Below are positions 4,107-57,878 of a stretch of 64,000 nucleotides of DNA, one piece after another. Within the stretch, counting starts at the first letter, position 1. Each line of letters begins with the position of its first letter. The notes beneath the pieces were generated by a model, which was not told the origin of the DNA, made no database searches, and was given only the letters and a program-made list of their open reading frames with translations. Origin of the DNA: Minisyncoccota bacterium (GTDB lineage: Bacteria > Patescibacteriota > Minisyncoccia > Phycocordibacterales > UBA1006); assembly GCA_021734445.1 (NCBI GenBank), contig JAIPIY010000001.1, positions 31,849 to 95,848 of the forward strand, written 5' to 3'. The position numbers and the translations under genes are program-made.

Positions 4107-4499
4107 TTATTTCTTTAACGAATCCCGGATTTCACGTAATAATAGAGTATCTTCAGCTGGTGTTTTTTGCTGATTTAATTCTACGTGTTTCAATTTATTG
4201 ATACCTTTTACCAAAATAAAAATAGCAAAAGCGACAATCACAAATTGAATAGAAGTATTTAAAAACATTCCGTAATTCAAAGAAATAGCTGCATTAGTTT
4301 CTGTCGCTTGTTTCAAAATAATCACTTTGTCAGAAAAATCAACATTTCCTGATAATAAACCCAAGGGTGGCATAATAATATCATCTACTAATGAAGTTAC
4401 AATTTTCCCAAAAGCACCACCAATAACCACCCCGACAGCCAAATCAATAGCATTACCTTTTACTGCGAACTTTTTGAATTCTTCTATAAAATTTTTCAT
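4107..4499 (-). CDS. mscL: Large-conductance mechanosensitive channel MscL
   Basis: [49 protein letters not shown]: canonical MscL N-terminus and TM1. 130 aa. Confidence 0.85.
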
Positions 4500-4539
4500 A
4501 CCTTTACAATAAGGGATTGCATTTCAAAAGTCAAAGTGA

Positions 4540-4860
4540 TATTGTATTTACAAGTGAATATTTGTTCGTTCATTGACAGTTACTTGCGTCAAATTGGTTC
4601 TTGGCGATGACAAAGAGGTAATCTTTCCTTTCTGGCCCAGGTACGCCCGCTAAGTACTTAATGTATTCACGGGAAACTACTTCGTTGTCAAAATTTTGAA
4701 CCACACAAACCAACTAAACCTCGAAATGAGGTAGGATTTCGGATTAGATTCATGTGACACATAGGTAATCCTCCGTTACGCCAAACAAACGCCCCAGCCT
4801 TTGCTGACATGTTCCCCGCGAACATGATTCCGCAAGGTGGGGTCTTTTTTTTTATTGAAA
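4540..4860 (+). ncRNA. Candidate structured non-coding RNA of unknown family, ending in an intrinsic terminator
   Basis: A 390-bp ORF-free gap. The plus strand ends with nested hairpins (CATGTTC-CCCGC-GAACATG inside CCCCAGCCTTTGC...GCAAGGTGGGG) followed by T9 at about 4790-4858. I found no match to tmRNA, RNase P or SRP consensus by eye. Confidence 0.25.
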
Positions 4861-4890
4861 AATAGGATACAATCATTATGTTCTTTATTT

Positions 4891-4964
4891 CCGCCCTTAG
4901 CTCAGTTGGTTAGAGCACAGAGCTTATACCTCTGGGGTCCATGGTTCGAGTCCATGAGGGCGGA
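4891..4964 (+). tRNA. tRNA-Ile with anticodon UAU (tRNA-Ile2 lineage, CAU->UAU)
   Basis: Cloverleaf: acceptor CCGCCCT/AGGGCGG, D-arm GCTC-AGTTGGTTA-GAGC, anticodon stem CAGAG/CTCTG with loop CTTATAC (U33, anticodon T34-A35-T36, A37), T-arm CATGG-TTCGAGT-CCATG, discriminator A. The D-arm and acceptor closely resemble E. coli tRNA-Ile2. No CCA is encoded. Confidence 0.8.
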
Positions 4965-5072
4965 CAAAGCATAGGACATCTTGTCCGATCCATAGCGTGA
5001 CGACGCGAGACGGGCTCGCGCAAAAATTCACCAGAATTTTATATGTGAGAGCAAACAAATACTACTAATCAT

Positions 5073-5100
5073 AAAAACCGCCAGATATCTGGCGGTTTTT
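5073..5100. terminator. Bidirectional terminator (tRNA / ftsH)
   Basis: AAAAACCGCCAGAT-ATCTGGCGGTTTTT, a perfect palindrome. Confidence 0.6.
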
Positions 5101-5109
5101 ATGATTGTA

Positions 5110-7035
5110 TTAATCTTTTTTCACAGCATCTTCTTTCTTCTCTCGTTTTTTAGGATGAATCCCATGTGCACGAATGATTGTATCATATGCATCTTGTTCC
5201 AGTGTTTCTACATCCAACAATGCTTCGGCAACTGCATCTAATGCTTTTCGATGTTCGGTTAACACCATCTGTGCACGTGCCATTGCTTCGGACATGATGC
5301 GAGATACTTCGGAATCAATAATCGATTCTGTTCTTTCAGAATGTGGTCGTCCGTCAACTCCGGGACCAAATAAGGCACGCCCATCATTTCCTTCTAATGC
5401 AATTGGACCAATCAAATCTGACATACCCCATTTAGTAACCATACTACGTGCCAAACGTGATGACACTTGTAAATCATTTGATGGACCAGTAGTTACATCT
5501 CCAAAAATCATTTTTTCAGTAACATACCCGCCTAATGACATTGCAATATCATCTAAAAATTCTGCGCGTTTTTGTAATTTCTTTTCTTCAAGTGGTAATT
5601 TCATGGTGTACCCACCTGCGCGACCACGTGCCACAATAGATACCTTGTGGACAGGGTCAGCATCTGGTAATACTGATGCAACAATTGCGTGCCCTGCTTC
5701 GTGATATGCAGTGATTCTTTTTTCTTCTGGAGAGAACAGATGGCTTTTTCGTTCTGGACCAATCATAACCTTTTCGATAGAGCGAATCAAATCAAACTGA
5801 GATACCTGGGTTCGCTCTTCACGTGCCGCTAAAATAGCACCTTCGTTCATCAATGAATACAAATCCGCCCCAGAAAATCCTGGTGTTCTTTCTGCGATCA
5901 CCACCAAATTTACATCTTCTGCTAGTGGCTTTTTACGTGCATGAATATTTAATATTTCTTCGCGGTCTCGTCGGTCTGGAAGATCCAACATAACGCGTCG
6001 ATCAAAACGCCCTGGTCGTAATAATGCAGGATCCAATACATCTCCACGGTTGGTTGCTGCTATAACGATTACTTTTTCGTTTGGATCAAAACCATCCATT
6101 TCTACCAAAATTTGGTTCAATGTTTGTTCACGTTCATCATTTCCACCCCCTGTTCCCACACCACGAGACCGCCCTACGGCATCGATTTCATCGATAAAAA
6201 TAATTGAAGGAGAAGCTTTTTTTGCCATAGCAAATAAATCACGAACACGACTGGCACCAACACCAACAAACATTTCTACGAATTCAGAACCAGACAAATG
6301 GAAAAACGGAACTTTTGCTTCGCCAGCAACTGCACGCGCCAACAATGTTTTTCCTGTTCCAGGATCCCCCATCAACAAAACACCTTTTGGAATTTCTGCA
6401 CCAATATCAAGAAATTTCTTTGGGTTTCGCAAAAAATCAACAACTTCTTCTAATTCTTGTTTTGCTTCGCGATTACCTGCAACATCTTTGAATGTGATTT
6501 TTTGTTTCGATGGGTCTGTGATGCGAGCCTTTGATTGACCAAATGTAAACGCTTGCATTCCCCCTGCACCTTTTACCTGACGTGATAAAAACCAAAAGAT
6601 TAATAAAATAAAAATAATTGGGAATAAGATTGGTGCCAAATTCATCAACCAGTATCCAAACCCGCTTTCATTTTTTACTTCAATAACTACGTTTTCCAAA
6701 TCATCTTGGGATACGCCATAATTAACCAGCGTTTCTGACAATGATGATTCACGTTCTTTTTTTGCAACTGCCTCTGTTTCATCTGCTAATGTTACCGATA
6801 ATTTATCACCCTGCACGATGATTTTTTCTACTTCCCCAGAGCGCACTTGTTGTGCTACCCATGATACAGAAACTTCTTCGGGTTTATTTTGTTCGCCTCC
6901 GAATGTTGTGTATAAAAATGATAACAGCACAAAAAATACTAAAATTGAAAGAAAATGTTGAAGAAAATTAATACCAGGTTTCCCTGGACCCTTCTTTTTC
7001 TTCATATTCTTATTGATGTTATTAAAAAATTTCAT
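5110..7035 (-). CDS. ftsH: ATP-dependent zinc metalloprotease FtsH
   Basis: 641 aa. N-terminal TM helices, Walker [27 protein letters not shown] region, zinc motif HEAGHA. Confidence 0.95.
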
Positions 7036-7101: not shown

Positions 7102-7548
7102 ATGACAACGTTTATCAACCACAAACAAGCCGGCTTTCATTATGAAATATTGGAAACCTTTGAAATGGGTATCCAACTGGTGGGTACCGAAGTAAAAGCT
7201 ATCAAAAAAGGTCATGGCAGATTAACTGGTTCGCATGTATCGTTTTTGGGAAACGAGGTTTTTTTGATTGGGGCAGATATCCCAGCATGGCAGATTAACA
7301 ATGCGCCTGCTGGATATAATCCCCTTCGCCCCCGTAAATTATTGTTACGCGCAAAAGAAATTCAAAGATTGCAAAAATTAAAACAATCTCAGGGTTTGAC
7401 ATTGATACCAATTTCAATGTATAATAAAGGAGATCTCGTAAAGATATCTATTGCGTTGGCACGTGGAAAGAAAAAACATGATAAACGTGAATCAATCAAA
7501 AAACGAGATACCGAACGAGATATAGGAAGAAAACTGAAAGGACGTTAA
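7102..7548 (+). CDS. smpB: SsrA-binding protein SmpB
   Basis: 148 aa. GFHYEILETFEMGIQLVGTEVKAI...GADIPAWQ...GYNPLRPRKLLLRAKEIQRL, a typical SmpB, with a basic C-terminal tail. Confidence 0.9.
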   Translation: MTTFINHKQAGFHYEILETFEMGIQLVGTEVKAIKKGHGRLTGSHVSFLGNEVFLIGADIPAWQINNAPAGYNPLRPRKLLLRAKEIQRLQKLKQSQGLTLIPISMYNKGDLVKISIALARGKKKHDKRESIKKRDTERDIGRKLKGR

Positions 7549-7560
7549 CAACTACATATT

Positions 7561-7941
7561 GGGGATGATCGGTATTGACAGGAGGATTCGTTGCATATGC
7601 TGCGTATCGAGCTCGTCTAACTCGTATAACTGGACGAACACTTCAAGTGCAAACTCACTTGGTATCAAATCTCCGTATTTCGCGGGATTTGCTCCAGCGT
7701 ACGCATAATCGCGATGGCTGGTGTCGACACAAACAAGAGTCTCATAGTTTGTCGTTCGGCATAATATTCTGAGGCTGTGTCTATGTACGCGCTTTGATAC
7801 ATAGTCAAGATATAAAAGCTCGATGTGTGCATGTTTTGTCTGTTTCGGACATGTACATATTTAAATTAAAGAAATAGACTACATACTGTAGATTGTATGT
7901 GCACACCTACCTACACGGGGGTTCGATTCCCCCCATCTCCA
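7561..7941 (+). ncRNA. ssrA: tmRNA (ssrA)
   Basis: 5' GGGGATGATCGGTATTGACAGG (compare E. coli GGGGCTGATTCTGGATTCGACGG). 3' tRNA-like end GGGGGTTCGATTCCCCCCATCTCC-A: acceptor GGGGATG/CATCTCC with a G3-U70 pair, T-arm GGGGG-TTCGATT-CCCCC. Candidate resume codon GCA at 7649 (nt 89), ORF GCA AAC ... GCA TAA. Located directly after smpB. Confidence 0.85.
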
Positions 7942-7946
7942 CGAGT

Positions 7947-7977
7947 TAAAAAAGAAACGCGAAAGCGTTTCTTTTTG
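7947..7977. terminator. Bidirectional terminator after ssrA
   Basis: AAAAAAGAAACGC-GAAA-GCGTTTCTTTTT. Confidence 0.55.
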
Positions 7978-7986
7978 TTTACGAGT

Positions 7987-8277
7987 GCGAGATGGGGGGA
8001 ATCGAACCGAGGGTGCGCGAAGCCGGACGATAGTCCGTGCACCCGAGTGGGGGTCGAGCGAATGAGATGTTTTATAATCCGCCAACTGGCGGAGAAATAA
8101 AATATCCATGAGAGTGACCGATTCCCTTTTATTTACTTTCGAGGGGAATCGAAAGGCGTAGGTCGCGAAGCCAATTTTCGTAGAAAATTGATGACCGAGC
8201 CAGGGTCGTGAGCACATATTTTTAACGAACGAAGAGAGTATAAAAATAGTGACTCCTGACCGATTTCCCCACTCTTT
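7987..8277. repeat. Cluster of degenerate copies of the ssrA 3' end (two inverted, two direct); possible relic att sites
   Basis: Minus-strand copies: ...CACCCTCGGTTCGATTCCCCCCATCTCGCA (plus 7989-8016) and ...CGCGACCTACGCCTTTCGATTCCCCTCG (plus 8141-8170), each next to a GGCTTCGCG(C)ACC unit. Plus-strand copies GTGACCGATTCCCTTTT (8114-8130) and GACCGATTTCCCCACTC (8258-8276). Compare the genuine ssrA end GGTTCGATTCCCCCCATCTCC. No ORF is supported here; the ORFs 7879..8310 (-) and 7897..8100 (+) overlap these RNA-like repeats. Confidence 0.45.
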
Positions 8278-8710
8278 ATAACCGTTTACAAAAACCGCCC
8301 TCTCCTCCAAACAAACTTGAAATAGAAGAACACATATACGAAGGTTTATACCAATTTAATTGCGTATTTATCCATGAAGCTGGTCTCATATAAAAATTAA
8401 GTGCGGAATTCTCCGTAATTTTATCAATTTCTACTTTATTCTTTTCATAGTTTTCTTTAGATAAATAACAACCCATTGGGGTCTGTATCTTACGACCTCC
8501 AGTTGTCGCCCCTTTATAATATCCATTCATCTCATTACAAATCTCTCGATGTCCATGGCTTTGAATTAAACTGATGACAAGTACAAGAAAAAATAAGCAA
8601 AAAAACATAAAACAAAAAGATTGTATAATTTTCTGTCTTCTTGAAAGCCCGGCGAACCATACTTTACATTCTCTAATAAATGACGTTTCCATATATTTAT
8701 ATGGTAGCAC
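8276..8710 (-). CDS. Hypothetical small membrane protein
   Basis: ORF with one hydrophobic helix (FCFMFFCLFFLVLVISLI). Its 3' end overlaps the repeat cluster and the start is uncertain. Confidence 0.3.
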   Translation of the reverse strand: MLPYKYMETSFIRECKVWFAGLSRRQKIIQSFCFMFFCLFFLVLVISLIQSHGHREICNEMNGYYKGATTGGRKIQTPMGCYLSKENYEKNKVEIDKITENSALNFYMRPASWINTQLNWYKPSYMCSSISSLFGGEGGFCKRL

Positions 8711-8770: not shown

Positions 8771-9184
8771 ATGAAATCACTAATCTTGCATTGCTCAAAA
8801 TTCAATTCAGAATTCAAGAGTCTTGCCACAAGACCAAAGAATATAGAACCGGAAACGGTTAACCAAACAAAATGGGAACACAATGAATCTGTGGTTGCCC
8901 TTATTACTGTAGAAAAAGAAGACAATATAGAAACCATTTCTAGCCAGATGGCTGAAGAACTTAAAAATATTCTTAAAGATTTAGGTAAAGAAAGTTTAGT
9001 TATTGTTCCATTTGCACATCTCTCAAATAATATAGCAGACCATAGAAGTGCCTTGAGTTTTTTAGATTTATTGGAAGATAAATTAAAAGGATTTAAAATA
9101 TCACGCGTTCATTTTGGATCGCATAAATCGCTATTACTAGATATACCTGGTCATGTCGGTAATGTAAGATTTAGAGAATTTTAA
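8771..9184 (+). CDS. Hypothetical protein
   Basis: 137-aa ORF. Its stop overlaps the start of the downstream methyltransferase (TAATG), suggesting translational coupling. Confidence 0.4.
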   Translation: MKSLILHCSKFNSEFKSLATRPKNIEPETVNQTKWEHNESVVALITVEKEDNIETISSQMAEELKNILKDLGKESLVIVPFAHLSNNIADHRSALSFLDLLEDKLKGFKISRVHFGSHKSLLLDIPGHVGNVRFREF

Positions 9185-40311: not shown

Positions 40312-43300
40312 CTATTCTGTAGTAGGTGCTTCGCCTGAATCACTACTTTCTGATTCCGAAGATTCTCCAGGTTGACCCTCATTTGAACTTTCCTCTGCTG
40401 ATTCTTTGGATTCATTAGATTCTTCTACTGTATCTTCTTGTGGTTCTTCATTTACATTTGATTCATCGGGTGCATTTCCAATATTTTCAGCGTTATCAGT
40501 ATCATCAGTATCATCAGTGTTTACATTTGATTCATTTGAAGTATTTTCAGTAGTATCATCTATTATTTCAGATTCATTATTTTCTTCATCCGAGCCATTT
40601 GCATCATCTATATCATCTGTATTATCAGAAGAAGAATTGTAATATATGGTAGAAATATTTTGATTTTGTAGTAATTGTTGTAACTGATCTTTTGTTACAC
40701 AAACATCTTCGATACAAAGCTCGTTAGTTTGAACTTTGTCAGATCGAATTATTTGTACAAACAATTCGCCTATTCCATTCCCCGCATCAGCAAACCAGTT
40801 TCGGATTCTTGAAAGAAATGTTTCATCTGAAAGATTTTGAATATCCAATATTTTCAAGTCAATTTCTTTGATTGCAGCAACAAGTACAGGTGTAATTTGT
40901 GAATAATAAACAGATTTGAGACCTTTTTCATTAGTTGCTACAAGTTCTGGGAAATATTGCTCAAGGTCTTGAGCAAGGAATCCAATTTGTGCATCTGTAT
41001 TTGGTCTGTCATTCCAGTTATACGTAACAGTTTTTAGTTGGAGTACTTTATCTAAGATATTTGTCATATCTTCGATATTTGTTTTTAATCGTTCATCTGA
41101 TGAACATGCGATACCGGTACCGGTGGTAATAGTACACTCTGTAGTGGCTGCTTGGATGCGTACGGATTCAATTGATCCTGTTGCCAAGGTTGAACCAATC
41201 ATGAGTTGATTAGTTGCTGTGTTAGTTGCCCCTTTACCCAATGCGATACTGTTAGAGAATCCTCCGGTTGAAGTGTCGTCACCGATTAAGATAGAGTGGA
41301 AATCTGCGGTGAAGTTGTTAAGGGTAAAGTCTGCTGTTTTATATCCTGCATTGTTTCCAATGAAGATGGAGTTGTTAGAGTTTTGAGAGCCGGTGTCTAC
41401 TCCATTGGATGCTCCAGCAAGATAGCCAATGAAGGTGGAGTTGTATGAGTTAGCCGCCGCAGAGCCAGCATTTTGTCCAAAGAAATTTGAATTAGAAGCA
41501 GAGGTTGCCGAAGCACCAGCATTCTGCCCAAAGAAGTTTGAGTTATTAGCATCGGTTGCCGAACTACCAGCGAAGGTACCAAAGAAGTTTGAGTTATTAG
41601 CATTAGCTGAAAAATTTCCTGAATATTCTCCAAAAAAATTTGAATGATAAACACTTGAAGAACTCGCCCCAGCAAAACGACCCAAAAAATTTGAATGGTG
41701 TGCATTAGTTGAATTTTGACCAGCATATTGACCTAAAATAATATTACCACCTGAACTAGTCGATCCCTGCTCCGCTCCTGTTAGTCCAGAAGAATATAGG
41801 GTATTACCTGCTGTTCCAACAGAAATTGGAGAAGATGTTTGTGCCGCCCAACTCATCACCCCTGCATTAGTTGATGAAAGTACATATCCATTTGTCCCAG
41901 GATATGCTGTTGGTAAAGTATATGATTCACCTTGGAATTTCCACGTAGTAATACTGTCTGGAAGTGCAAATTGGTTTGAAGCAGCGATAGCGCCGAAACC
42001 GAGAGCAATGGCATTCGAGGTATTACCTGTTGAAACATCTGCAAATGAACCGATAAGTGTGTTATTTATACCGGTAAGATTAGTGTACCCCGTACGATAT
42101 CCTAAAGCAGCATTATCAGACCCAGAAATAGTTTGAGAAAGTGATTGAAACCCATTAGCCGTGTTTCGGTTATTTGTTACTGCTTCAAGTGCTGCGTATC
42201 CAAATGCTGTGTTAAAAGACCCTGTTTGATTAAAGGCTATAGTTTGGTAACCATGCCCTGTATTATATTCACCGGTTGTGTTTGAAAATAATGACTTATA
42301 ACCAGTAGCAGTATTAAAAGACCCTGTGGTATTAAAACGAAGAGCGTAGGCTCCATGTGCAGTATTATAAAACCCTGTGGTATTAGCAAAAAGCGATTCC
42401 AGCCCAGTTGCAGTATTATTATTCCCTGTAGTATTAGAATACCCTGACTGATATCCAATAAATGTATTAGCATTTGGTCCAGAGTTATTTAACCCTGCAT
42501 CTATCCCTAGAAATGTATTGTTATTTTCGGTAAGACCCGTAAGTGATGTAGTTGTTTCCCACGATAATTGCCCAGCCCCATCAGTAGTCAAAATTTCTCC
42601 ATTCCCACCATCAGCTCGTGGGAATGTGTACCCTGAGGTTCCATCAAAATCAAATGTTATTCCAGAAGCATAATTTAAAAGTATCTTGGAATAATCTCCA
42701 GTGGAAGAATTACCCGCATTTAAATCAAAACCATCCTCTGTTATAGTAAATACATTTTGCATATCATCTCCGAATGAATCTTCTACCTGGAGTCGCATTT
42801 CGATACTCTCAGGTTCAAAGCTAGCAAATGAAAGGTAATTATTATCAAAATCAAGATATCCAACAAGTGTTGTTTGATCAGACAACCCAACACCACTGGC
42901 ATCTCCATTAAAAATGAGATTCATACCAGCAGATGGTCCACTATCGGGAACGTGTATCATCCCAGAACCAATGAAAAATTCATTTTCTAAAACATCATCT
43001 ACGAATACACCTGTGATATATCCAGGAACTAATGTTGCTGTTCCTACAAGGAAACGATCCTCATTTCGGAAGAATAATTCATCCGTCGTAATATCCCCAT
43101 TCCCATCTAAATACAAAACACTGTTTGGATCTAATCCGTCATACAGACTAATAGCACATGCTGGATCGGTTGGACCAGTACACAGAGTGTCCCCTACAGG
43201 ATCCAATGTTTCTCCTGGTGCAATAGCAGAAACCACAATACCACCATAGATAGTGAGAGCGACTACAACAAACAAAAAGAGACTATATTTTTTACATACT

Positions 43301-43314
43301 TCAAAAAATTTCAT
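40312..43314 (-). CDS. Giant secreted tail-fibre-like repeat protein with C-terminal peptidase-S74 intramolecular-chaperone domain and acidic tail
   Basis: Signal peptide (MKFFEVCKKYSLFLFVVVALTIYG; start at the internal Met). About 40 short NT..G/NTA.G repeats (NTATGLESLFANTTGFYNTAHGAYALRFNTTGSFNTATGY...). C-terminal SSDERLKTNIEDM...VTYNWNDRPNTDAQIGFLAQDLEQYFPELV matches the endosialidase/tail-spike S74 auto-cleaving chaperone domain. Terminal ~110 aa are D/E/S/N-rich. Confidence 0.6.
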   Translation of the reverse strand: MKFFEVCKKYSLFLFVVVALTIYGGIVVSAIAPGETLDPVGDTLCTGPTDPACAISLYDGLDPNSVLYLDGNGDITTDELFFRNEDRFLVGTATLVPGYITGVFVDDVLENEFFIGSGMIHVPDSGPSAGMNLIFNGDASGVGLSDQTTLVGYLDFDNNYLSFASFEPESIEMRLQVEDSFGDDMQNVFTITEDGFDLNAGNSSTGDYSKILLNYASGITFDFDGTSGYTFPRADGGNGEILTTDGAGQLSWETTTSLTGLTENNNTFLGIDAGLNNSGPNANTFIGYQSGYSNTTGNNNTATGLESLFANTTGFYNTAHGAYALRFNTTGSFNTATGYKSLFSNTTGEYNTGHGYQTIAFNQTGSFNTAFGYAALEAVTNNRNTANGFQSLSQTISGSDNAALGYRTGYTNLTGINNTLIGSFADVSTGNTSNAIALGFGAIAASNQFALPDSITTWKFQGESYTLPTAYPGTNGYVLSSTNAGVMSWAAQTSSPISVGTAGNTLYSSGLTGAEQGSTSSGGNIILGQYAGQNSTNAHHSNFLGRFAGASSSSVYHSNFFGEYSGNFSANANNSNFFGTFAGSSATDANNSNFFGQNAGASATSASNSNFFGQNAGSAAANSYNSTFIGYLAGASNGVDTGSQNSNNSIFIGNNAGYKTADFTLNNFTADFHSILIGDDTSTGGFSNSIALGKGATNTATNQLMIGSTLATGSIESVRIQAATTECTITTGTGIACSSDERLKTNIEDMTNILDKVLQLKTVTYNWNDRPNTDAQIGFLAQDLEQYFPELVATNEKGLKSVYYSQITPVLVAAIKEIDLKILDIQNLSDETFLSRIRNWFADAGNGIGELFVQIIRSDKVQTNELCIEDVCVTKDQLQQLLQNQNISTIYYNSSSDNTDDIDDANGSDEENNESEIIDDTTENTSNESNVNTDDTDDTDNAENIGNAPDESNVNEEPQEDTVEESNESKESAEESSNEGQPGESSESESSDSGEAPTTE

Positions 43315-43348
43315 ATGACTATAGTATAGCATGTTTTTTTTAAAAAGA

Positions 43349-44689
43349 TTACAGAATTTTATGAATCCAATCTTGTGCTTGTTCTTTTGTTGGAGCTTCG
43401 GCAAAAAACCGAACAATAGGTTCTGTGTTTGATGCCCTAACATGCAACCAACCGTTGTCAAAATTCACCTTGATACCATCAGTTTCATCTATAGAGAATT
43501 CTGAAAATATTGTTTTCACTTTTTCAAGATACATTTCAACTTCCTGTCGTGAAGAAACTTCTATTTTGTCTTTTACAATTTCATATTTGGGAATTTCAGC
43601 AACCAATTCGGATAACGTTTTTCCTGTTACCGCAAGCATTTCTAAAATTAATGCAATACCCACATAAGAATCCCGAACATATCCAATTTCTGGCCAAATA
43701 ATACCACCATTCCCTTCTCCACCGAACACAGCCTGATTTTCTACCATTGCATTCGCGACATGAATTTCTCCAATTTGCGTTCGCATGATTTTGCAACCAA
43801 ATTCATTTGCGACATCATCAAACATTTTTGATGTCGAAAGATTTGCAACTACTGGACCCCCTTGTTTTTCTGTACGTGTTTGCAAATAATGACGCATTGC
43901 CAATACTAATGTATATTCTTCCCCAATGGGATTTCCCTTCTCGTCAACAATGGCCAACCTGTCCGCATCAGGATCCTGGGCAAAACCAACCTGTGCACCA
44001 GTTTCGCGAACCTTTTGACCCAATACATCTAAAAATTCTGGCAACGGTTCTGGGTTTCGTTCAAATTCTCCCTCTATTTTTTCATGCAGATATATTGCGT
44101 CAATACCCAATTGCGCCATCATGTATGCATCCGCGTCAATCCCCGCCCCATTTCCCATATCTATAACAGTTGTTAATTTTGCATTTTTTATTACATCCAC
44201 CTGAACATGTTTCAAAATCTTATCAATATGATTTTTACCAGCGTCATCTTTTTTTACAACAGAGCCAGGTGTAGTATCCAACAAAGGATTCTCGCCAGAT
44301 TCATATTGTTTGATAATCTGATTCATAACAGATGGGTCTAAAAATAATCCAAGAGGGGTAAAAAACTTTAATCCATTCCAGGGTGCAGGATTATGACTGG
44401 CGGTGATCATAATACCAGCATCAGCGGATTCTGTGCGAACAGTAAATGCTAATGTAGGAGTTGCGGTGATCCCACAATGAATCACCGTGCAACCATATTC
44501 CCGCAATACACGTATTACAATTTCAGAAATCTCATTACGGCTTTTACGTGTATCAGTACCCAATATTACCTTTTTTGGTTTTACCACATCTAAAAATATT
44601 TTTATGATCTGTTCTGTGTTTTCAGGCAATAATGATTTACCCCAAATACCTCGAATACCTGAAATACCCAGCTTTAATGTGTTTTGCAT
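43349..44689 (-). CDS. Phosphohexomutase (phosphoglucosamine/phosphomannomutase)
   Basis: Active-site ITASHNPAPWNGLKF (phospho-Ser loop), metal-binding DPDADR, sugar-binding GEEYT-like loop. 446 aa. Confidence 0.85.
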   Translation of the reverse strand: MQNTLKLGISGIRGIWGKSLLPENTEQIIKIFLDVVKPKKVILGTDTRKSRNEISEIVIRVLREYGCTVIHCGITATPTLAFTVRTESADAGIMITASHNPAPWNGLKFFTPLGLFLDPSVMNQIIKQYESGENPLLDTTPGSVVKKDDAGKNHIDKILKHVQVDVIKNAKLTTVIDMGNGAGIDADAYMMAQLGIDAIYLHEKIEGEFERNPEPLPEFLDVLGQKVRETGAQVGFAQDPDADRLAIVDEKGNPIGEEYTLVLAMRHYLQTRTEKQGGPVVANLSTSKMFDDVANEFGCKIMRTQIGEIHVANAMVENQAVFGGEGNGGIIWPEIGYVRDSYVGIALILEMLAVTGKTLSELVAEIPKYEIVKDKIEVSSRQEVEMYLEKVKTIFSEFSIDETDGIKVNFDNGWLHVRASNTEPIVRFFAEAPTKEQAQDWIHKIL

Positions 44690-48667: not shown

Positions 48668-51600
48668 TTATTTTGATTCAGTTTCAAACGCTGTATCAAT
48701 GATCCCCTTTGTAACAGAAAACGGCTCAGAAGTAAATACAGGAGTATATGATTCATCTGCATTTTTTGCTTCGATGGTAATATAATAGTTTCCATTTGCT
48801 ATCAAACAATAATATCTTCCTCTTTCATCAATAATTACGTGCTTGATTTCTTTTTGCAGTTTTGCAGAAAATACACGAATAATTCCAAATGACAATGGAA
48901 CACCACGATGCGTAACCGTTCCATGCGGATGTGGTTTTAATAACGTAACACGAACAAAAAAGATGAGAATATATGCGACAAATACAATAATATTTAATGT
49001 TGACGGTAATACAAACAATGTCCATGTTGCAATTCCAAAACCAATCCAAAAGAATAGGCTGGCTATTTTAACCAATATGGCTTCATGTTTCACATCAAAA
49101 CTCATGACACCCATTTCTTTTTTCGCAAATTCATTCCAATTAAATTTCAATGGATCCATGGGAATATTGTGTTTGATTACTTGCCCTTCTTCGGTGATGA
49201 TTATCTGTCCTCCAAAATACAGATTGTCATATACTGCGTCTTTTGTAGTATTTGCCAGTTTTTGTGATGGGAATTGATAATCTGTTTTGTGAATCACAAG
49301 GGTATAGGTTCCTGGTTTCACCAAAAATCCATACCGACCATCCAAATCAGTAATAGAAGTTGCTACTTCGTTACCGTTTACATCCATCAACATCACATAT
49401 GCTGGATCAAGAGGTTGTTTGGTTACTGCATCATATACAACCCCCCATTTTTCTACTTTTTTCTTGAGACCAAGACCCGACAGTAGGAAATTCCACAATC
49501 GCATAGGTACCGTAGATAACTGTGGTAACAATGCCATGCCTGCGGTTGCAATACCGGCAACACTGGCCAAGATACCTAATGTGGTCATTGTTTTACCAGT
49601 AGTGCTTTGCACAAAATCAGTTACAGAAGCAACTATTTCTTCAATGAAATCAGTGAATCCTGATGATGAGCCATCTGACCCCTGATTATCCGTAGTTGAT
49701 GATAAGGTATCTTCATTATCATCAAAAGGAAAATCTTCAAATTCCTCTTCAGTATCTTCCATATCTTCTTCATCTATGGGCTCATCTTCGTCTACCGGGT
49801 CTTCGGTTGGTGATTCTGGGGTTGGAGTATTTGGTGAATCAGTAGGCTCTCCTGTTGTTGGTGGCTCACCGGTAGATGTAGTTGTTGGAACAATAATAGC
49901 CGAACCTCCAGAAGAAGATGTGCTATCTGTATTTGAATCTTCTTCCTCATCTTCTGGCTCTACTGCTTGAGTAATAGCAAATGATGAAAAAGAGGTGGCA
50001 TTAAAAATACATCGATTTTTACTATCAATAGTACACTGAGTTAACGCAGACCAAGAGCTTGATTCTGGGGATTTGTGAAATACTGTATATGTTTCTCCTA
50101 TGATAATTCCGGGTATATTTTCAAGCTGAATTTCAACAGACTGAGAAGCCTGTAAATTACTGTTTGGTAATCCAAAAGAAAAACTACGCAGAACTTCTTG
50201 ATTATCAATACCGGGTAGTGTAGTAAGGCCCAAATCATCTATTAACGTCAGGGCTTCAAAATTTGTTTTACCTAAATATCTAAATTCAGTCCCTGCATCA
50301 ATCGTAATTCGATCATTAATAGAAATTGAATCAAAGACAATAGCATTATTAAACAATGCGCGTATACCATTTGTTCCTTCGAATCTCTCTCCCCAACCCT
50401 CATTCAGGGGTTCATATATTCCTGATCTATACAAAGACCAAACAAGATCATCTCCAGAAACAGTGTAAGAATTAGTTGCATCAAGCCAAGAAATTTGAGA
50501 ATTATCAACAGCATTAGGGTTCATATACCCATATCCATATCCATACGTGAATTCATTCCCAGGAGCAGAAGATCCACCAGATGTATCATATTTTGAAACT
50601 TCTAATTTCCATCCAGCAGAAGGGGCCGTATCTATATGAAGCACATGCGGAACATCTTCAGATAATACAAAATCCAACCCATACATGCTCGTAAAAGAGT
50701 CTCCTAATAAATCCATTCGAAACCAAGCACTACCATCTACAAGCCTTTCAACTGATGTATTATAATTCAATGGATTACCATCATCCGAATATGCCACATA
50801 CAATACTCCATCCGAATCAGCTTCCATTTTAATATATTGAGGAGCATGACTTGAAAAACCTTGTGCGCCGACAAAAACACCTCCACCAGAAGAAACATCT
50901 TTTACAGAAACATGCCCGCCTCCATATGCATAGTCCTGATATGCAATATACAAACTATCATCGACAGATACCATATCAAAAGAACCCGATATAGTTGTAT
51001 ACAATGGATGTAATAGAATTGATTCCCACTCTAATGCCAAAGTTTTCACATCAATACGATACAAAGAACCATCATAATATTTATAAGCAACATAGAGATC
51101 ATCATTATCATCAATAGAAAAACTCAATACTGACATAGCCCCGGTAGCAACAACCTCTGTTGTTGGTCCTTCTACATTTTCCCAATCAGGTCCATTGTCA
51201 TATTTTAAAACACGCAGAGTTCCCGTATCATTAATAGCAACATGAACAACGTCCTGTGAATCCAGAGCGATTGCATGATCATACATAGTAGCAAGAGTCA
51301 TAATAGGACCAGCACCAATCACTTGCCAAGAACCACCAACCAATTTAATCACCGTGGGCCCAGTAGTTCCCTGGAATAAAACATAGGGCACATCCTGAGA
51401 ATCCAAAGCAATCTTTGGTCGGGAACCCGTAAATCCCGTTTCCTGAAATGTATTCCATGACCCCTCTGTGTATCCAACAACTTTTATGGCACCTGAAAAA
51501 TTATCCACATACGCCACAGCAATTTTATCATCTGAACCTCTTGCCATGGAAAACCCTTGTGCCAGACCAACCGATGTAGTAGGAAAAATATTTTCTGAAA

Positions 51601-51838
51601 TATCAACCCATACTGGATTTGAAACCATTCTATATCCCGCTAACTGTCCCAAATCCCAACCATATCCGTATCCATAACCATATCCATAGCCATATCCCCA
51701 ACCAACAGACCCTGTTTGCCGTGCAAACTGAGCAAAAGCAACACCCGAACTGGCAATCAATCCAATAATCAGAATAGCAATGAAACTTTGTTTTTTTGTA
51801 ACGAAAAAATTGTGTATTTTTTTTATGTGCTGGATCAT
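48668..51838 (-). CDS. Giant (1056 aa) surface protein: N-terminal GY-repeat module, beta-propeller-like repeats, acidic linker, TM segments, C-terminal carboxypeptidase-regulatory-like domain
   Basis: Signal peptide then [28 protein letters not shown]; a second GYGYGY block; repeated ...LYVAY/LYIAY blade-like motifs; D/E/T/S-rich linker; hydrophobic helices; C-terminal [39 protein letters not shown]. Confidence 0.6.
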
Positions 51839-53641: not shown

Positions 53642-54853
53642 TTATAGACCTAATATCGATTCGACGAAGAGAAAAGAATCTTCAAATGTCTTTTCCCAAC
53701 TGGTTTCCATGTTATTTGCACGGTAGTTTTCATATCTTCCTTCGGGGTTTTGTGCCAACATAACTGCTTGTTTGAAATATATATCCACAAAATCATCCCG
53801 TATAATATCTCCACATATAATATTTTTTGAATAATGTGCATTCGTCCTCTTTTGATAGGTATTTGTTAATGCAACACCACCACTGGATGCGATATCCATG
53901 GGCATATATCCAGGATGTGGTGTCCATAATAATGAAAACCCAAGATCCACTTTTTTTAAAAAGTCTGAATATTCTTCCCATGTCATTTTACCTAATACAT
54001 GCGGAATAACACCATTAAAAAAATGAGGTGGATCAATATTCTCTCCGGCAAAATAAATTTTCCATTTTTCTTTTTCTAAAACTTTTTTTTGAAAAGCTTC
54101 TTCAATCAATTTTAAACCTGTATAGTATAAATTGCGAGGCGTATTCGGGCGTGCATAAAAGAGCAATACATAGGTATCCTTCGGAAGAAATGCATTCTTA
54201 TTCGGTTGATATAAATGTGAAGTAAATGCGGGTTCGAAATAAATACTATTATGTTTGATATTTTCAAAAGATGAGTTTTGAAAATATTCAAATAAAATCC
54301 TAGAATTTACAATATATTTTACTCTTGGATTCGCTAATACTTTTTCACACCAATATGCATCATCGCCGTTATTATAGAATACAACTTCTGATTCTTGAAT
54401 AATGTGAAAAAAGTTTTCCATAAGACACACCTTATTAACAAGATAGGAAGACCACCAAGATGTTGCAACAAATATATCTTTTTCAGATATTTCCAAGGCA
54501 GTATTATATGATTCTGCAGTATAAGTACTAAAAAACTCTACCTGTATAGGCTTTTCTATGTTCATAGATTTTAAAAAGTTTTCATATGCAACTGGTTGTG
54601 CTTCCTCATCTCGTATAATAATTCGTAATACATAACCCGTACGTAGCGCAAAAAGAGTTGCAAATATAATCACTGTTGCTACCCCTCCAAAAACATACTT
54701 ATCTTGTAGTGAATCCAGCACAAGATTGATTCGATAAGAATCACGAGACACCCTCTTTGTTTTCCAAACAGGCAAATATGCTAATTTTGTATACATAAGA
54801 TGTTGAACGGATTGCATATTATTTTTGATCAAAAAAATCTTTTGTATAATCAA
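53642..54853 (-). CDS. Hypothetical protein, possibly a glycosyltransferase (N-terminal TM anchor)
   Basis: 403-aa ORF with one N-terminal TM helix and a soluble domain; no clear family motif. Its location in the glycan locus is the only functional hint. Confidence 0.35.
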   Translation of the reverse strand: MIIQKIFLIKNNMQSVQHLMYTKLAYLPVWKTKRVSRDSYRINLVLDSLQDKYVFGGVATVIIFATLFALRTGYVLRIIIRDEEAQPVAYENFLKSMNIEKPIQVEFFSTYTAESYNTALEISEKDIFVATSWWSSYLVNKVCLMENFFHIIQESEVVFYNNGDDAYWCEKVLANPRVKYIVNSRILFEYFQNSSFENIKHNSIYFEPAFTSHLYQPNKNAFLPKDTYVLLFYARPNTPRNLYYTGLKLIEEAFQKKVLEKEKWKIYFAGENIDPPHFFNGVIPHVLGKMTWEEYSDFLKKVDLGFSLLWTPHPGYMPMDIASSGGVALTNTYQKRTNAHYSKNIICGDIIRDDFVDIYFKQAVMLAQNPEGRYENYRANNMETSWEKTFEDSFLFVESILGL

Positions 54854-57800: not shown

Positions 57801-57878
57801 ATGCATCCCTAATACAATATAACAGGTATGTTTTTGATTCATTGTGCACAATATATAGGTTTTTCTGTTGAAATACAA
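54819..57878 (-). CDS. WbbB-like multidomain glycan assembly protein: Stf0-type sulfotransferase, ~160-aa coiled coil, tandem repeats, RgpF-like glycosyltransferase, second GT-like domain
   Basis: aa 18-260: sulfotransferase motifs MHRSGTS (5'-PSB) and TYRNPIEIIYSLQKR (3'-PB). aa ~270-435: heptad-rich Q/E/K coiled coil. aa 440-516: three tandem copies of R(W)xxxHPLxFLKKxVW...PTYPQI. aa ~530-770: AHIFYEDMWEEI...KVHTKKS, RgpF (rhamnan synthesis F)-like. aa ~785-1019: a second nucleotide-sugar-transferase-like region (...FYCHTKGVS...GNFWWAQ). Confidence 0.6.
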   Translation of the reverse strand: MYFNRKTYILCTMNQKHTCYIVLGMHRSGTSLVSGILSKLGVFLGREEDMLSQTVENPYGYFENNKVMSINDDILSVFGGTWDTIPILQYGWQKDVRLNSIRDRIESFIHDMQSQKAVWGIKDPRMPITLPLWQEYLPENTCYIITYRNPIEIIYSLQKRKNITAVKNFFSLWSRTYSSIQECIHNKKNIYVSYNLLHANFQREVEKFVDADPFGFLAQQYQEKKEFVVKLFDIRLYRNLDMSGYMVSDYDMSEIGFSAMMLRDASMLHDWLEKDFDKEKATYLQQIQVLENQCTYLEQQNKDIEAIQKNISTSKQDILEKMHIDQHSHDDRQQAVIARLEKIEKNYREKTFALIQLLEKKQQKELELQNLVQEKEKQIDVTMLEKDFLSQGVIEKDRYIASLQDHIQSIQLALQTTQQVLQQKENLLMHIQSNSLLAKMKNLYIRIRWALHHPLRFLKKNVWQGFPTYPQIRWVILHPLKFLKKHVWRSMPTYPQIIWAIYNPKKFFEKYFLRRKTKFLYTPLVTQKDTKHPRITVIAHIFYEDMWEEIYKRLQYIEEPFHIIITLTQGHYSKSFIKKVKNAYPDVKIFTYENQGLDILPFVKALAHVPKDTQFILKVHTKKSLYDPSMGAKWFYDLMDHVLHDEKTVNAILHNLEYSDAGMIGGSHVGALGNIFSSDEVYEPSIEKIYAHTDEQHTQYSWISGSIFWVRYDILEKIISQKFISFLEKEQPMGYVENGTVIHGLERYVGKLVYDAGRVIYEYPQNRYSYDFITLIPDNYSIQKTKKIYVFFHICCIYNYAEIVHTMIQSMQDSGLYDECEEIYYALLGDPTDSFLLLLKTYKKMKCVYTSPDITEVEYPLLTYLQEFSHTQDAYIFYCHTKGVSQSNDSVKIKWRERLVEKNIKEYKKCISFLNKGCDIAGCGWKEHPVDNSIRQPFSVHTHSHFSGNFWWAQSVYIRTLPSIQKRELQLHDRKDKRGWEFESYRLECEMWIGQGEKKKVGVNTDLNIDYTKDFFDQK

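What the first reader, a model, noticed from the sequence alone, without database searches (positions are those of the whole stretch)
4891..4964. tRNA-Ile of the Ile2 (lysidine) lineage that carries a genomically encoded UAU anticodon
The tRNA body (acceptor GCCC.., D-arm UAGCUCAGUUGGUUAGAGCA) is very close to bacterial tRNA-Ile2, which normally has CAU modified to lysidine by TilS. Here the anticodon is U34-A35-U36. Reading AUA with an unmodified or differently modified UAU anticodon is rare in bacteria; Mycoplasma mobile and a few others do this and lack tilS. It has consequences for AUA versus AUG discrimination in this AT-rich genome.
Basis: seen in the sequence. Interest (0 to 1): 0.55.

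Follow-up and report, generated by a model that had tools for sequence, protein, structure and literature searches.

The report
Lysidine-free AUA-reading isoleucine tRNA, CPR-wide
This is a real isoleucine tRNA with a gene-encoded UAU anticodon, and the same tRNA sits next to the ftsH gene in a large branch of the ultra-small "candidate phyla radiation" bacteria, where it appears to replace the lysidine enzyme TilS that textbooks treat as nearly universal and essential.

Summary
Window 4891-4964 (+) is a canonical tRNA with anticodon UAU at 4925-4927 (ARAGORN; Rfam 67.7 bits).

It is not a one-off. The same tRNA was found in at least 120 species-level genomes, almost all Patescibacteria/CPR. 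Across 88 distinct sequences the cloverleaf is 99.8% paired, with double-sided changes in every unconstrained pair.

It lies directly downstream of ftsH in 61 of 61 genome loci. It does so in 18 of 20 CPR-like metagenome loci that were chosen by FtsH alone.

CPR lineages that keep TilS (Southlakia, Kazan, Moranbacteria, Doudnabacteria and others) carry tilS directly upstream of ftsH. Three of the lineages read here, and Southlakia, also have three CAU tRNA genes beside it. None has this tRNA. The two states never co-occur.

AUA is common in the window (19.3 per 1000 codons). It aligns with Ile/Val/Leu in E. coli orthologues and never with Met.

Best reading (about 0.75): this is the lineage's AUA decoder, replacing TilS plus tRNA-Ile2(CAU).

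Not tested:
- genome-wide absence of tilS
- the IleRS type in this organism
- the modification state of U34

The "Ile2 lineage" claim cannot be settled from sequence identity. I found no paper linking CPR to this system.

The parts
4891..4964 (+). tRNA-Ile(UAU) gene, 74 nt. It has a C1-G72 first pair and A73, and no CCA is encoded.
   Evidence: ARAGORN; Rfam RF00005 at 67.7 bits; covariation in 88 homologues.
4925..4927 (+). Anticodon T34-A35-T36 in the loop C32-U33-UAU-A37-C38 (window 4923-4929).
   Evidence: Sequence, ARAGORN position 35 and the Rfam alignment. Loop CUUAUAC occurs in 99 of 119 CPR copies.
4855..4882 (+). Sigma-70-like promoter match (TTGAAA-16-TATGTT) ending 8 nt before the tRNA. 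This is a weak consensus match only.
   Evidence: The number of such matches in the region is no higher than in shuffles, so this is only a candidate.
5066..5107 (.). Long GC-rich hairpin with T-runs on both strands. It is a likely bidirectional terminator shared by the tRNA transcript and the convergent ftsH.
   Evidence: 19-pair stem; terminator-like sites: 5 found against 0.9 expected.
5110..7035 (-). ftsH, the conserved syntenic partner. The tRNA lies just past its 3' end (convergent here, co-directional in most relatives).
   Evidence: NCBIfam TIGR01241 at 779 bits. The tRNA is downstream of ftsH in 61 of 61 genome loci, median gap 97 bp, and in 28 of 80 FtsH-selected metagenome loci.
7102..7548 (+). 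smpB, which occupies the position upstream of ftsH where TilS-bearing CPR lineages carry tilS.
   Evidence: NCBIfam SmpB. Among 43 genome loci with upstream sequence, smpB is upstream of ftsH in 34 and TilS in none. tilS lies directly upstream of ftsH in the TilS-bearing CPR lineages.

Best explanation
The gene encodes a functional elongator tRNA-Ile whose unedited UAU anticodon reads the abundant AUA codons. In this organism, a Paceibacteria/Parcubacteria-type member of the CPR near 'Nomurabacteria', it takes the place of the usual bacterial device of tRNA-Ile2(CAU) plus the lysidine synthetase TilS.

Shown: the tRNA is real and under strong structural selection. It is inherited with ftsH across one large CPR clade. 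AUA is frequent and means an aliphatic residue (Ile/Val/Leu positions), not Met. TilS and this tRNA are mutually exclusive at the ftsH locus across CPR.

Inferred:
(a) tilS and tRNA-Ile2(CAU) are absent from the rest of this genome.
(b) The tRNA is charged by a type-2 (archaeal/eukaryal-type C-terminus) IleRS. That class reads position 34 through a conserved arginine and accepts U34. The one cultured Paceibacteria-class relative has this type.
(c) A37 carries t6A.
(d) Misreading of AUG through U34-G wobble is held down by competition with tRNA-Met plus a tRNA- or ribosome-encoded device. The derived C38 and the unusual C1-G72 pair are candidates on the tRNA side.
For: The tRNA is real.

Six carry a tRNA 73/74 identical to the window's.

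Synteny: downstream of ftsH in 61 of 61 genome loci.

Sample chosen by FtsH alone: of CPR-like loci with both flanks at least 1 kb, 18 of 20 have the tRNA and 0 of 20 have TilS. Over all 80 loci, 28 have the tRNA only, 4 have TilS only and none has both. E. coli TilS does detect the four TilS genes (E 1e-14 to 1e-22), which serves as a positive control.

No TilS hit and no SGGxDS PP-loop motif occurs in any ORF of at least 80 aa in the window or in 855 kb of tRNA-bearing loci.

Ten further loci taken from named or unnamed CPR TilS proteins all show tilS directly upstream of ftsH. The eight scanned with ARAGORN have no tRNA-Ile(tat).

The fully annotated Saccharibacterium Southlakia has TilS next to FtsH (scored essential in 2 of 3 analyses), three 'tRNA-Met' genes clustered beside it and a single tRNA-Ile.

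In Moranbacteria the order is tilS-ftsH-tRNA-Val(gac). In tRNA-bearing lineages it is ftsH-tRNA-Ile(tat)-tRNA-Val(gac).

In Shapirobacteria-type loci the cluster is fMet-Met-Ile(UAU), where TilS-bearing lineages have fMet-Met-Ile2(CAU).

In an FtsH neighbour-joining tree, all but one of the 81 tRNA-bearing loci fall in one contiguous block and all TilS-bearing loci fall outside it; L176 is the exception, sitting among the TilS-bearing loci.

Codons: ATA is 19.3 per 1000 and 24% of Ile codons. In 13 genes aligned to E. coli, ATA positions align to I/V/L at 23% each and to M at 0%, whereas ATG positions align to M at 24%.

IleRS: Minisyncoccus archaeiphilus IleRS carries PF19302/DUF5915. The archaeal/eukaryal-type C-terminus recognises G34, I34, U34 and pseudouridine-34 through a conserved Arg (PMC11685878). 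The tilS-less Bifidobacterium and Neorickettsia also have eukaryote-type IleRS (PMC3575796).
Against: No complete genome of a tRNA-bearing lineage could be searched, so a tilS gene elsewhere on the chromosome is not excluded. Some bacteria (L. casei, L. plantarum, Cyanothece, Ferrimonas) carry both systems.

The complementary pattern rests on about 10-20 kb around ftsH, and on lineages that are not phylogenetically independent.

The IleRS of this organism was not seen. The M. archaeiphilus annotation table is truncated at about half the genes, so its tilS status is unknown.

Nothing here says whether U34 is modified.

The window's own ftsH uses only 2 ATA in 43 Ile codons. AUA may therefore be avoided in some highly expressed genes.
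Confidence: 0.75

Rival explanations
1. Redundant decoder. The genome still has tilS and tRNA-Ile2(CAU) somewhere outside the window, and the UAU tRNA is a second, parallel AUA reader. This is the 'transition state' proposed for Lactobacillus casei/plantarum.
For: Bacteria with both systems exist (PMC3575796). Only about 64 kb of this genome and 8-20 kb of each relative could be read. 'Doudnabacteria' includes both a TilS-bearing contig (L217) and a tRNA-bearing contig (L104), so the two states are evolutionarily close.
Against: In every CPR TilS context retrieved, tilS is directly upstream of ftsH: ten loci fetched from TilS proteins, four FtsH-selected loci (three of them CPR-like) and Southlakia. 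That slot is empty in 0 of 43 and 0 of 24 tRNA-bearing or CPR-like loci. TilS and the tRNA never co-occur in any of more than 200 loci. The named hits among the best 120 relatives of a CPR TilS profile and of a Moranbacteria TilS are Moranbacteria, Kazan, Gracilibacteria, Doudnabacteria and 'Patescibacteria group', plus a few non-CPR bacteria. None of the Nomura-, Kaiser-, Taylor-, Adler-, Yonath-, Uhr- or Falkow-bacteria labels that carry the tRNA appears. Most hits are unnamed.
Confidence: 0.17
2. The system is the same, but fidelity depends on a modified U34 (pseudouridine as in eukaryotic tRNA-Ile(UAU), or a new modification) rather than on an unmodified U34 as in Mycoplasma mobile.
For: Yeast type-2 IleRS charges the pseudouridine-A-pseudouridine form 40-fold better than the unmodified UAU transcript. 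An unmodified U34 reads AUG on E. coli ribosomes. CPR genomes encode pseudouridine synthases (TruB at window 12313-13053) and MnmA.
Against: No candidate enzyme is linked to the tRNA. MnmE and MnmG are not annotated in Southlakia. The eukaryotic pseudouridine-34/36 formation depends on an intron, and this gene has none. In M. mobile, U34 is demonstrably unmodified.
Confidence: 0.35
3. Genetic-code deviation. The tRNA is charged with methionine (or another residue) and AUA is not isoleucine, as in many mitochondria.
For: ARAGORN names the amino acid from the anticodon alone. CPR relatives (Gracilibacteria, Absconditabacteria) are known for a code change; this last point is my own knowledge.
Against: In 13 conserved genes, ATA codons align to E. 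coli I/V/L (11 each of 47) and never to M, like ATT and ATC. ATG aligns to M in 24% of cases. The tRNA has A73, A35-U36, A37, C4-G69 and U12-A23, as in E. coli tRNA-Ile identity sets (the identity set is from memory of Nureki et al. 1994).
Confidence: 0.02
4. Dispensable passenger: a pseudogene, or a tRNA brought in by a phage or mobile element.
For: Accessory tRNAs with odd anticodons are common on mobile elements. A tmRNA gene, a frequent integration site, lies 2.6 kb away.
Against: The position next to ftsH is fixed across a whole clade. The cloverleaf is perfect with compensatory evolution. The anticodon loop is invariant. No integrase or repeat flanks the gene.
Confidence: 0.02

Closest known systems
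Mycoplasma mobile tRNA-Ile2(UAU) system (Taniguchi et al. 2013, PMC3575796)
   Same: A gene-encoded UAU anticodon reads AUA. There is no lysidine. A37 is available for t6A. The same AUG-misreading problem arises.
   Different: M. mobile keeps a bacterial-type IleRS that adapted by a Trp-to-Arg change (R865) in the Zn-binding domain. CPR relatives appear to have type-2 IleRS without that domain. M. mobile is a single species-level loss, whereas here a whole clade is involved. The window tRNA has C1-G72 and C38. The state of U34 is unknown here.
Bifidobacterium and Neorickettsia: tilS-less, tRNA-Ile(TAT), eukaryote-type IleRS (PMC3575796 discussion)
   Same: This is the closest match in logic: type-2 IleRS plus tRNA-Ile(UAU), without TilS.
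   Different: These are different phyla with independent origins. The IleRS type of the window organism is inferred from relatives and was not seen. The ftsH linkage and the C1-G72/C38 features have not been described for these organisms.
Canonical TilS + tRNA-Ile2(CAU to lysidine), including the CPR members that keep it (Southlakia, Kazan, Moranbacteria, Gracilibacteria, Doudnabacteria)
   Same: Same job (AUA = Ile) and the same chromosomal neighbourhood (ftsH). Several copies share the acceptor-stem pattern (GGGCGCG..CGCGCCC in L174 Ile2-like and in L086/L089 UAU).
   Different: The anticodon is TAT, not CAT, so the tRNA cannot be a TilS substrate. No tilS sits at the conserved position. C38 replaces A38.
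Lactobacillus casei/plantarum, Cyanothece, Ferrimonas: tRNA-Ile(TAT) together with tilS
   Same: They carry a tRNA-Ile(TAT) gene.
   Different: In those organisms TilS is present. Here no co-occurrence was seen in any locus.
Archaeal and eukaryotic tRNA-Ile(UAU): Nanoarchaeum equitans and Korarchaeum, which lack TiaS (references 16 and 17 of PMC3575796; my own knowledge), and yeast tRNA-Ile with the pseudouridine-A-pseudouridine anticodon
   Same: A UAU anticodon is read by an archaeal/eukaryal-type IleRS. The setting is again an ultra-small episymbiont with a reduced genome (N. equitans).
   Different: The domain of life differs. The yeast tRNA needs an intron for its pseudouridines, and this gene has no intron.

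Membership tests
Bacterial TilS-independent AUA decoders (tRNA-Ile with UAU anticodon) | A canonical tRNA gene with a genomically encoded TAT anticodon | tested here: met
   ARAGORN and Rfam place UAU at positions 34-36. The cloverleaf covaries in 88 homologues.
Bacterial TilS-independent AUA decoders (tRNA-Ile with UAU anticodon) | AUA codons are used and translated as isoleucine | tested here: met
   ATA is 19.3 per 1000 codons. ATA positions align to I/V/L and never to M in 13 conserved genes. This is indirect: it rests on alignment, not proteomics.
Bacterial TilS-independent AUA decoders (tRNA-Ile with UAU anticodon) | Isoleucine identity elements outside position 34 (A35, U36, A37, A73, C4-G69, U12-A23, C29-G41, A38 in E. 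coli) | tested here: inconclusive
   A35, U36, A37, A73, C4-G69 and U12-A23 are present. Positions 29-41 are G-C rather than C-G, and position 38 is C rather than A. The E. coli rule set may not apply to a type-2 IleRS.
Bacterial TilS-independent AUA decoders (tRNA-Ile with UAU anticodon) | No tilS and no tRNA-Ile2(CAU) in the genome | tested here: inconclusive
   Neither gene is in the 64-kb window. tilS is absent from its conserved CPR position upstream of ftsH here and in all relatives. The two states are mutually exclusive in more than 200 loci. The whole genome was not available.
Bacterial TilS-independent AUA decoders (tRNA-Ile with UAU anticodon) | An IleRS able to accept U34 (Arg/Lys in place of Trp in the Zn domain, or a type-2 C-terminal domain) | not testable with these tools
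   ileS is not in the window or in any fetched locus. The hits to E. coli IleRS turned out to be ValRS. Relatives do show it: M. archaeiphilus IleRS has DUF5915, and Southlakia IleRS has no Zn-finger Pfam hit.
Bacterial TilS-independent AUA decoders (tRNA-Ile with UAU anticodon) | U34 unmodified (the M. mobile case) | not testable with these tools
   This needs mass spectrometry of the tRNA.
tRNA-Ile2 (lysidine) family | A CAT anticodon that TilS converts to k2C-A-U | tested here: not met
   The anticodon is TAT in the window and in all 148 homologues found by ARAGORN.
tRNA-Ile2 (lysidine) family | A body closer to Ile2 than to Ile1 or Met tRNAs | tested here: inconclusive
   Window against E. 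coli: ileX 67%, ileT 66%, metT 64%. CPR UAU copies are 64-81% identical to CPR Ile2-like tRNAs and 65-78% to CPR Ile(GAU).
Eukaryotic-type tRNA-Ile(UAU) (pseudouridine-A-pseudouridine) | An intron that directs pseudouridine-34/36 formation | tested here: not met
   The gene is a continuous 74-nt cloverleaf with no intron.

The most novel reading that the evidence does not exclude
A major branch of the CPR, and with it a sizeable share of bacterial diversity, gave up lysidine long ago and reads AUA with a U34 tRNA inherited vertically with ftsH. It would avoid Ile-for-Met errors at AUG by a device not yet described. Candidates are the derived C32/C38 loop, the tRNA-specific C1-G72 pair, an unknown U34 modification, or a ribosomal adaptation shared by the clade.
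Probability: 0.3. Interest if true: 0.8.

Novelty: new member of a known kind. Interest (0 to 1): 0.6.

Why it matters
TilS is described as present in about 98% of bacterial genomes, evolutionarily stable and essential. tRNA-Ile(UAU) is described as a rare exception: nine tilS-less species in 2013, and still 'rare cases' in a 2026 preprint.

If the pattern seen here holds genome-wide, a whole radiation of bacteria is an exception. Both states occur in neighbouring lineages and at the same locus.

That would supply three things:
- a natural series for asking how TilS can be lost
- a test of whether a type-2 IleRS is the enabling pre-adaptation
- a way to study how AUG misreading by U34 is prevented

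It also bears on annotation, because CPR genomes would be wrongly scored as 'missing' an essential gene. It bears on proposals to treat TilS as a universal antibacterial target.

Tried and rejected
- Source genome. Looking up the window's SmpB found only a 3-kb Logan contig, so no whole-genome check was possible.
- IleRS. E. coli IleRS against all fetched loci gave hits in L109, L053, L022 and L013, but these are ValRS. The 80 metagenome loci had none.
- tilS in a cultured Paceibacteria-class genome. The M. archaeiphilus annotation table holds no tilS, lysidine or K04075 entry, but it is stored only up to about MNSC_06xxx of 1305 CDS. It is therefore uninformative.
- The supplement of Taniguchi 2013, which lists species, is not held. 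The supplement of the mBio 2026 patescibacterium paper had no relevant entries.
- Ile2 versus Ile1 origin from pairwise identity: not discriminating.
- AUA = Met reassignment: rejected.
- AUA usage in ftsH of tRNA-bearing versus TilS-bearing lineages: no clear difference once GC3 is matched.
- Rfam at a permissive threshold on 4400-5150 returned only the tRNA (the next-best match, Plastid-ycf2, is its antisense image) and chance-level hits.
- L176, which sits among TilS-bearing FtsH sequences but carries the tRNA, does not share the Moranbacteria gmk-tilS neighbourhood. It is not a clean 'deletion' example.
- Literature searches combining CPR, Patescibacteria, Parcubacteria or Saccharibacteria with tilS, lysidine, anticodon or AUA returned nothing relevant.

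Full report
**1. The observation**

ARAGORN finds two RNA genes in the window: tRNA-Ile(tat) at 4891-4965 (+) and a tmRNA at 7561-7942. Rfam's tRNA model matches 4891-4964 end to end at 67.7 bits (gathering score 29) and puts UAU in the anticodon position of the loop CUUAUAC.

Read directly, the gene is CCGCCCU-UA-GCUC-AGUUGGUUA-GAGC-A-CAGAG-CUUAUAC-CUCUG-GGGUC-CAUGG-UUCGAGU-CCAUG-AGGGCGG-A. U34-A35-U36 fall at window 4925-4927. The first pair is C1-G72, the discriminator is A73, and no CCA is encoded.

A weak promoter-like match (TTGAAA-16-TATGTT, 4855-4882) ends 8 nt upstream. A 19-pair bidirectional terminator (5066-5107) is shared with the convergent ftsH.

**2. The organism and the surroundings**

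The window is 32-40% G+C. Its annotated genes are:
- left of the tRNA: a histidine kinase, a response regulator, recG, a peptidoglycan-binding protein and mscL
- right of it: ftsH (5110-7035, minus strand), smpB (7102-7548) and the tmRNA
- further on: a free-standing archaeal-type ThrRS editing domain, a SET-domain protein, truB, infC, rplT, ndk and a beta-CASP RNase
- a TraD-like ATPase, map, adk, secY with ribosomal proteins, the mur genes, and three proteins of over 1000 aa with no family match

This is a typical CPR/Patescibacteria gene set. The tRNA and FtsH comparisons below place the window among Paceibacteria/Parcubacteria, near genomes labelled Nomurabacteria.

The window contains no TilS, no PP-loop (SGGxDS) protein and no IleRS.

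**3. The tRNA is a clade-wide gene, not a one-off**

I used my single scan of the species-representative genome collection on a pattern that fixes only the D-arm, the CUUAUA loop and parts of the variable and T arms.

Almost all hits carry CPR names: Nomura-, Taylor-, Kaiser-, Adler-, Yonath-, Uhr-, Falkow-, Doudna-, Shapiro- and Peri-bacteria, Nanosyncoccus, Paceibacterota and 'Patescibacteria group'. The exceptions are records labelled 'Gammaproteobacteria' or 'archaeon' and one labelled Flavobacterium. For L007 ('Gammaproteobacteria') the label looks wrong, because its tRNA cluster matches that of Shapirobacteria L056.

Six genomes have a tRNA 73/74 identical to the window's.

In an alignment of 88 distinct sequences, the cloverleaf is paired in 99.8% of cells. 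All 15 pairs that the pattern did not fix show changes on both sides. The covariation score is 0.649, against 0.147 for shuffles and at most 0.133 for slid partners.

A73 is invariant (119/119). The loop is CUUAUAC in 99 of 119 copies, with A38 in 13 and U38 in 7. The first pair is C1-G72 in 66 of 119. Among roughly 90 other elongator tRNAs in the same loci, nearly all start with G, so C1 is peculiar to this tRNA.

**4. Linkage to ftsH, and complementarity with TilS**

In the 61 genome loci that hold a near-complete ftsH, the tRNA is always just downstream of it. The median gap is 97 bp. It is co-directional in 43 loci and convergent, as in the window, in 18.

Upstream of ftsH, 34 of 43 loci have smpB and none has TilS.

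Those loci were selected for having the tRNA. I therefore spent the one metagenome scan on the window's FtsH protein, which returned 80 loci chosen without regard to tRNAs.
- 28 carry tRNA-Ile(tat) downstream of ftsH.
- 4 carry a TilS gene upstream of ftsH. E. coli TilS detected these at E 1e-14 to 1e-22, so the method can see TilS.
- None carries both.

Among loci whose FtsH is at least 60% identical to that of a named CPR genome, and with at least 1 kb on both sides, 18 of 20 have the tRNA and 0 of 20 have TilS.

I then searched the protein database with a profile of three of those TilS sequences and with a Moranbacteria TilS. The close relatives that carry names are Moranbacteria, candidate division Kazan, Gracilibacteria, Doudnabacteria and 'Patescibacteria group'. 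A few more distant named hits are non-CPR bacteria.

I fetched genomic context for seven of these proteins. Every one has tilS directly upstream of ftsH. The loci scanned with ARAGORN have no tRNA-Ile(tat) within 10 kb.

In the Kazan-type, L211-type and L174 loci, three CAU tRNA genes lie just upstream of tilS:
- an Ile2-like gene (GGGxxCG...CCCCUCAUAAGGG)
- an initiator (CGCGGGG...)
- an elongator Met (GCCAGCG...)

The published annotation of the Saccharibacterium Southlakia epibionticum shows the same picture for a complete genome. TilS (294 aa) is next to FtsH and MviN and is scored essential in two of three Tn-seq analyses. Three 'tRNA-Met' genes cluster beside it. There is a single tRNA-Ile, and no MnmE or MnmG is annotated (PMC10633639 supplement).

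Two positional comparisons sharpen this.
- Moranbacteria have tilS-ftsH-tRNA-Val(gac). Several tRNA-bearing lineages have ftsH-tRNA-Ile(tat)-tRNA-Val(gac).
- Shapirobacteria-type loci have a cluster fMet-Met-Ile(UAU). TilS-bearing lineages have fMet-Met-Ile2(CAU).

In a neighbour-joining tree of 137 FtsH sequences, the tRNA-bearing loci form one contiguous block of 80, interrupted only by six loci with short flanks. All 11 TilS-bearing loci lie outside that block, and one further tRNA-bearing locus (L176) sits among them. This suggests an old origin followed by vertical inheritance. The tree is a distance tree only, and L176 is an exception.

**5. What AUA means here**

In 60 non-overlapping ORFs (19,242 codons), ATA occurs 19.3 times per 1000 codons. 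That is 24% of Ile codons, and about as frequent as ATG at 20.9.

In 13 conserved genes aligned to their E. coli orthologues, 47 ATA codons align to I, V and L (11 each) and never to M. ATT and ATC behave the same way.

AUA is therefore an ordinary aliphatic/Ile codon and needs an efficient decoder.

**6. Mechanism: what is shown and what is inferred**

Shown:
- A conserved, structurally constrained tRNA with UAU.
- Heavy use of AUA with an Ile-like meaning.
- Mutual exclusion with TilS at a conserved locus.

Inferred:
(a) tilS and tRNA-Ile2(CAU) are absent genome-wide. I put this at about 0.75-0.8.
(b) Charging is by a type-2 IleRS. The cultured Paceibacteria-class species Minisyncoccus archaeiphilus has an IleRS with PF19302/DUF5915 and no Zn-finger domain. 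Southlakia's IleRS also lacks a Zn-finger hit. The archaeal/eukaryal-type C-terminal domain reads the 4-carbonyl of U34 through a conserved arginine and also accepts lysidine (PMC11685878). The previously known tilS-less Bifidobacterium and Neorickettsia have this IleRS type too. A type-2 IleRS in the CPR ancestor would make loss of TilS tolerable.
(c) A37 carries t6A. TsaD and TsaE are present in M. archaeiphilus.
(d) Protection against AUG misreading is unknown. In M. mobile, U34 is unmodified and the ribosome provides the discrimination.

On the tRNA side, C38 is derived: the Ile2-like CAU genes of TilS-bearing CPR lineages have A38. The 32-38 pair is known, from my own recollection of Uhlenbeck-lab work, to tune A-site affinity. 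That makes C38 a candidate, but I did not test it.

**7. Comparison with what is known**

The kind of system is known: AUA reading by tRNA-Ile(UAU) without lysidine. In logic the closest case is Bifidobacterium/Neorickettsia (type-2 IleRS). M. mobile is the only experimentally dissected case.

The literature I could search still treats this as exceptional:
- nine tilS-less species in three clades (2013)
- 19 species with TAT genes in tRNADB-CE (2014)
- TilS in about 98% of genomes and 'evolutionarily stable' (2018, 2025)
- 'rare cases' (2026 preprint)

Six searches combining CPR names with tilS, lysidine, anticodon or AUA found nothing relevant. Subscription-only papers are not covered.

I therefore file the window's gene as a new member of a known kind. 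The clade-wide distribution, the ftsH linkage, the complementarity with TilS inside CPR, and the C1-G72/C38 features appear to be unreported.

**8.

The core is right: a genuine UAU tRNA-Ile, a TilS-independent mode, and relevance to AUA/AUG discrimination.

The claim of special closeness to tRNA-Ile2 is not borne out by identity: 67% to ileX against 66% to ileT and 64% to metT. Context favours replacement of Ile2.

**9. Verdict**

This is a real feature and a functional tRNA. It is very probably the AUA decoder of a lysidine-free lineage.

Interest is 0.6. The gene itself is an expected member of a known class. Its phylum-scale context contradicts a widely repeated generalisation and offers a tractable system for an open question, namely how U34 avoids reading AUG.

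Noticed in passing
window 4891 and 4963 (tRNA positions 1 and 72); loci L002-L206: The tRNA starts with a C1-G72 pair. C1 occurs in 74 of 148 CPR tRNA-Ile(UAU) copies, while nearly all other elongator tRNAs in the same loci start with G. This is a tRNA-specific feature of unknown function.
   Followed up: partly
window 5004-5050: A conserved ~45-nt motif (CGAGNCGGGNNCGCGCAAAAATTCANNAGAATTTTATNTGTGA) lies between the tRNA and the terminator. It is also found downstream of the tRNA in L011 and L110, and elsewhere in L116 and L006. The AAAAUUC/GAAUUUU hairpin keeps pairing through double changes. It occurs once in the window and has no Rfam match.
   Followed up: partly
window 4560-4856: This ORF-poor stretch upstream of the tRNA ends in a + strand terminator (4826-4844 plus T9). 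It folds better than shuffles (z = -2.35). It has no Rfam match and no homologue in the fetched loci. It may be an unannotated small RNA or a leader.
   Followed up: partly
window 8771-9184: A free-standing 137-aa protein matches the archaea-specific ThrRS editing domain (PF08915, E=6.5e-21). This would be a trans-editing factor of archaeal type in a bacterium.
   Followed up: no
window 16255-17658: A beta-CASP/MBL ribonuclease resembles archaeal aCPSF1 and the 'type VII Cas14' model (373 and 294 bits, both below their cut-offs).
   Followed up: no
window 11311-11706: A SET-domain protein (PF00856, E=1.5e-25), uncommon in bacteria.
   Followed up: no
window 40312-43461, 48668-51838, 54819-57878, 23909-26392: Four very large ORFs (827-1056 aa) have no NCBIfam match at E<=1e-10. 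A 921-aa TraD/TrwB-like coupling-protein homologue lies at 18961-21726.
   Followed up: no
window 7561-7944: A tmRNA with tag peptide ANSLGIKSPYFAGFAPAYA sits directly after smpB. An ORF at 7879-8310 (minus strand) overlaps its 3' end and has no family match.
   Followed up: no
L208 7924-9843, L211 4627-5350, L174 4021-4849: In TilS-bearing CPR lineages the three CAU tRNA genes (Ile2-like, initiator, elongator Met) cluster with divIC directly upstream of tilS-ftsH-murJ. The Southlakia annotation shows the same layout.
   Followed up: yes
L007, L013, L017, L024, L029, L041, L089: These public records are labelled 'Gammaproteobacteria', 'archaeon' or 'Flavobacterium' yet carry this tRNA. For L007 the tRNA cluster matches Shapirobacteria L056, so the label looks wrong. 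The Flavobacterium contig (L041, 5 kb) has a divergent copy and may be contamination or a separate case.
   Followed up: partly
L176 5806-8145: This metagenome locus has an FtsH that groups with the TilS-bearing lineages, yet it carries tRNA-Ile(tat) downstream and tRNA-Arg(cct) upstream of ftsH. It may mark an independent switch, or it may be an artefact of the distance tree.
   Followed up: partly
window 5110-7035: The window's own ftsH uses only 2 ATA among 43 Ile codons, although ATA is 24% of Ile codons window-wide. AUA may be avoided in some highly expressed genes.
   Followed up: no
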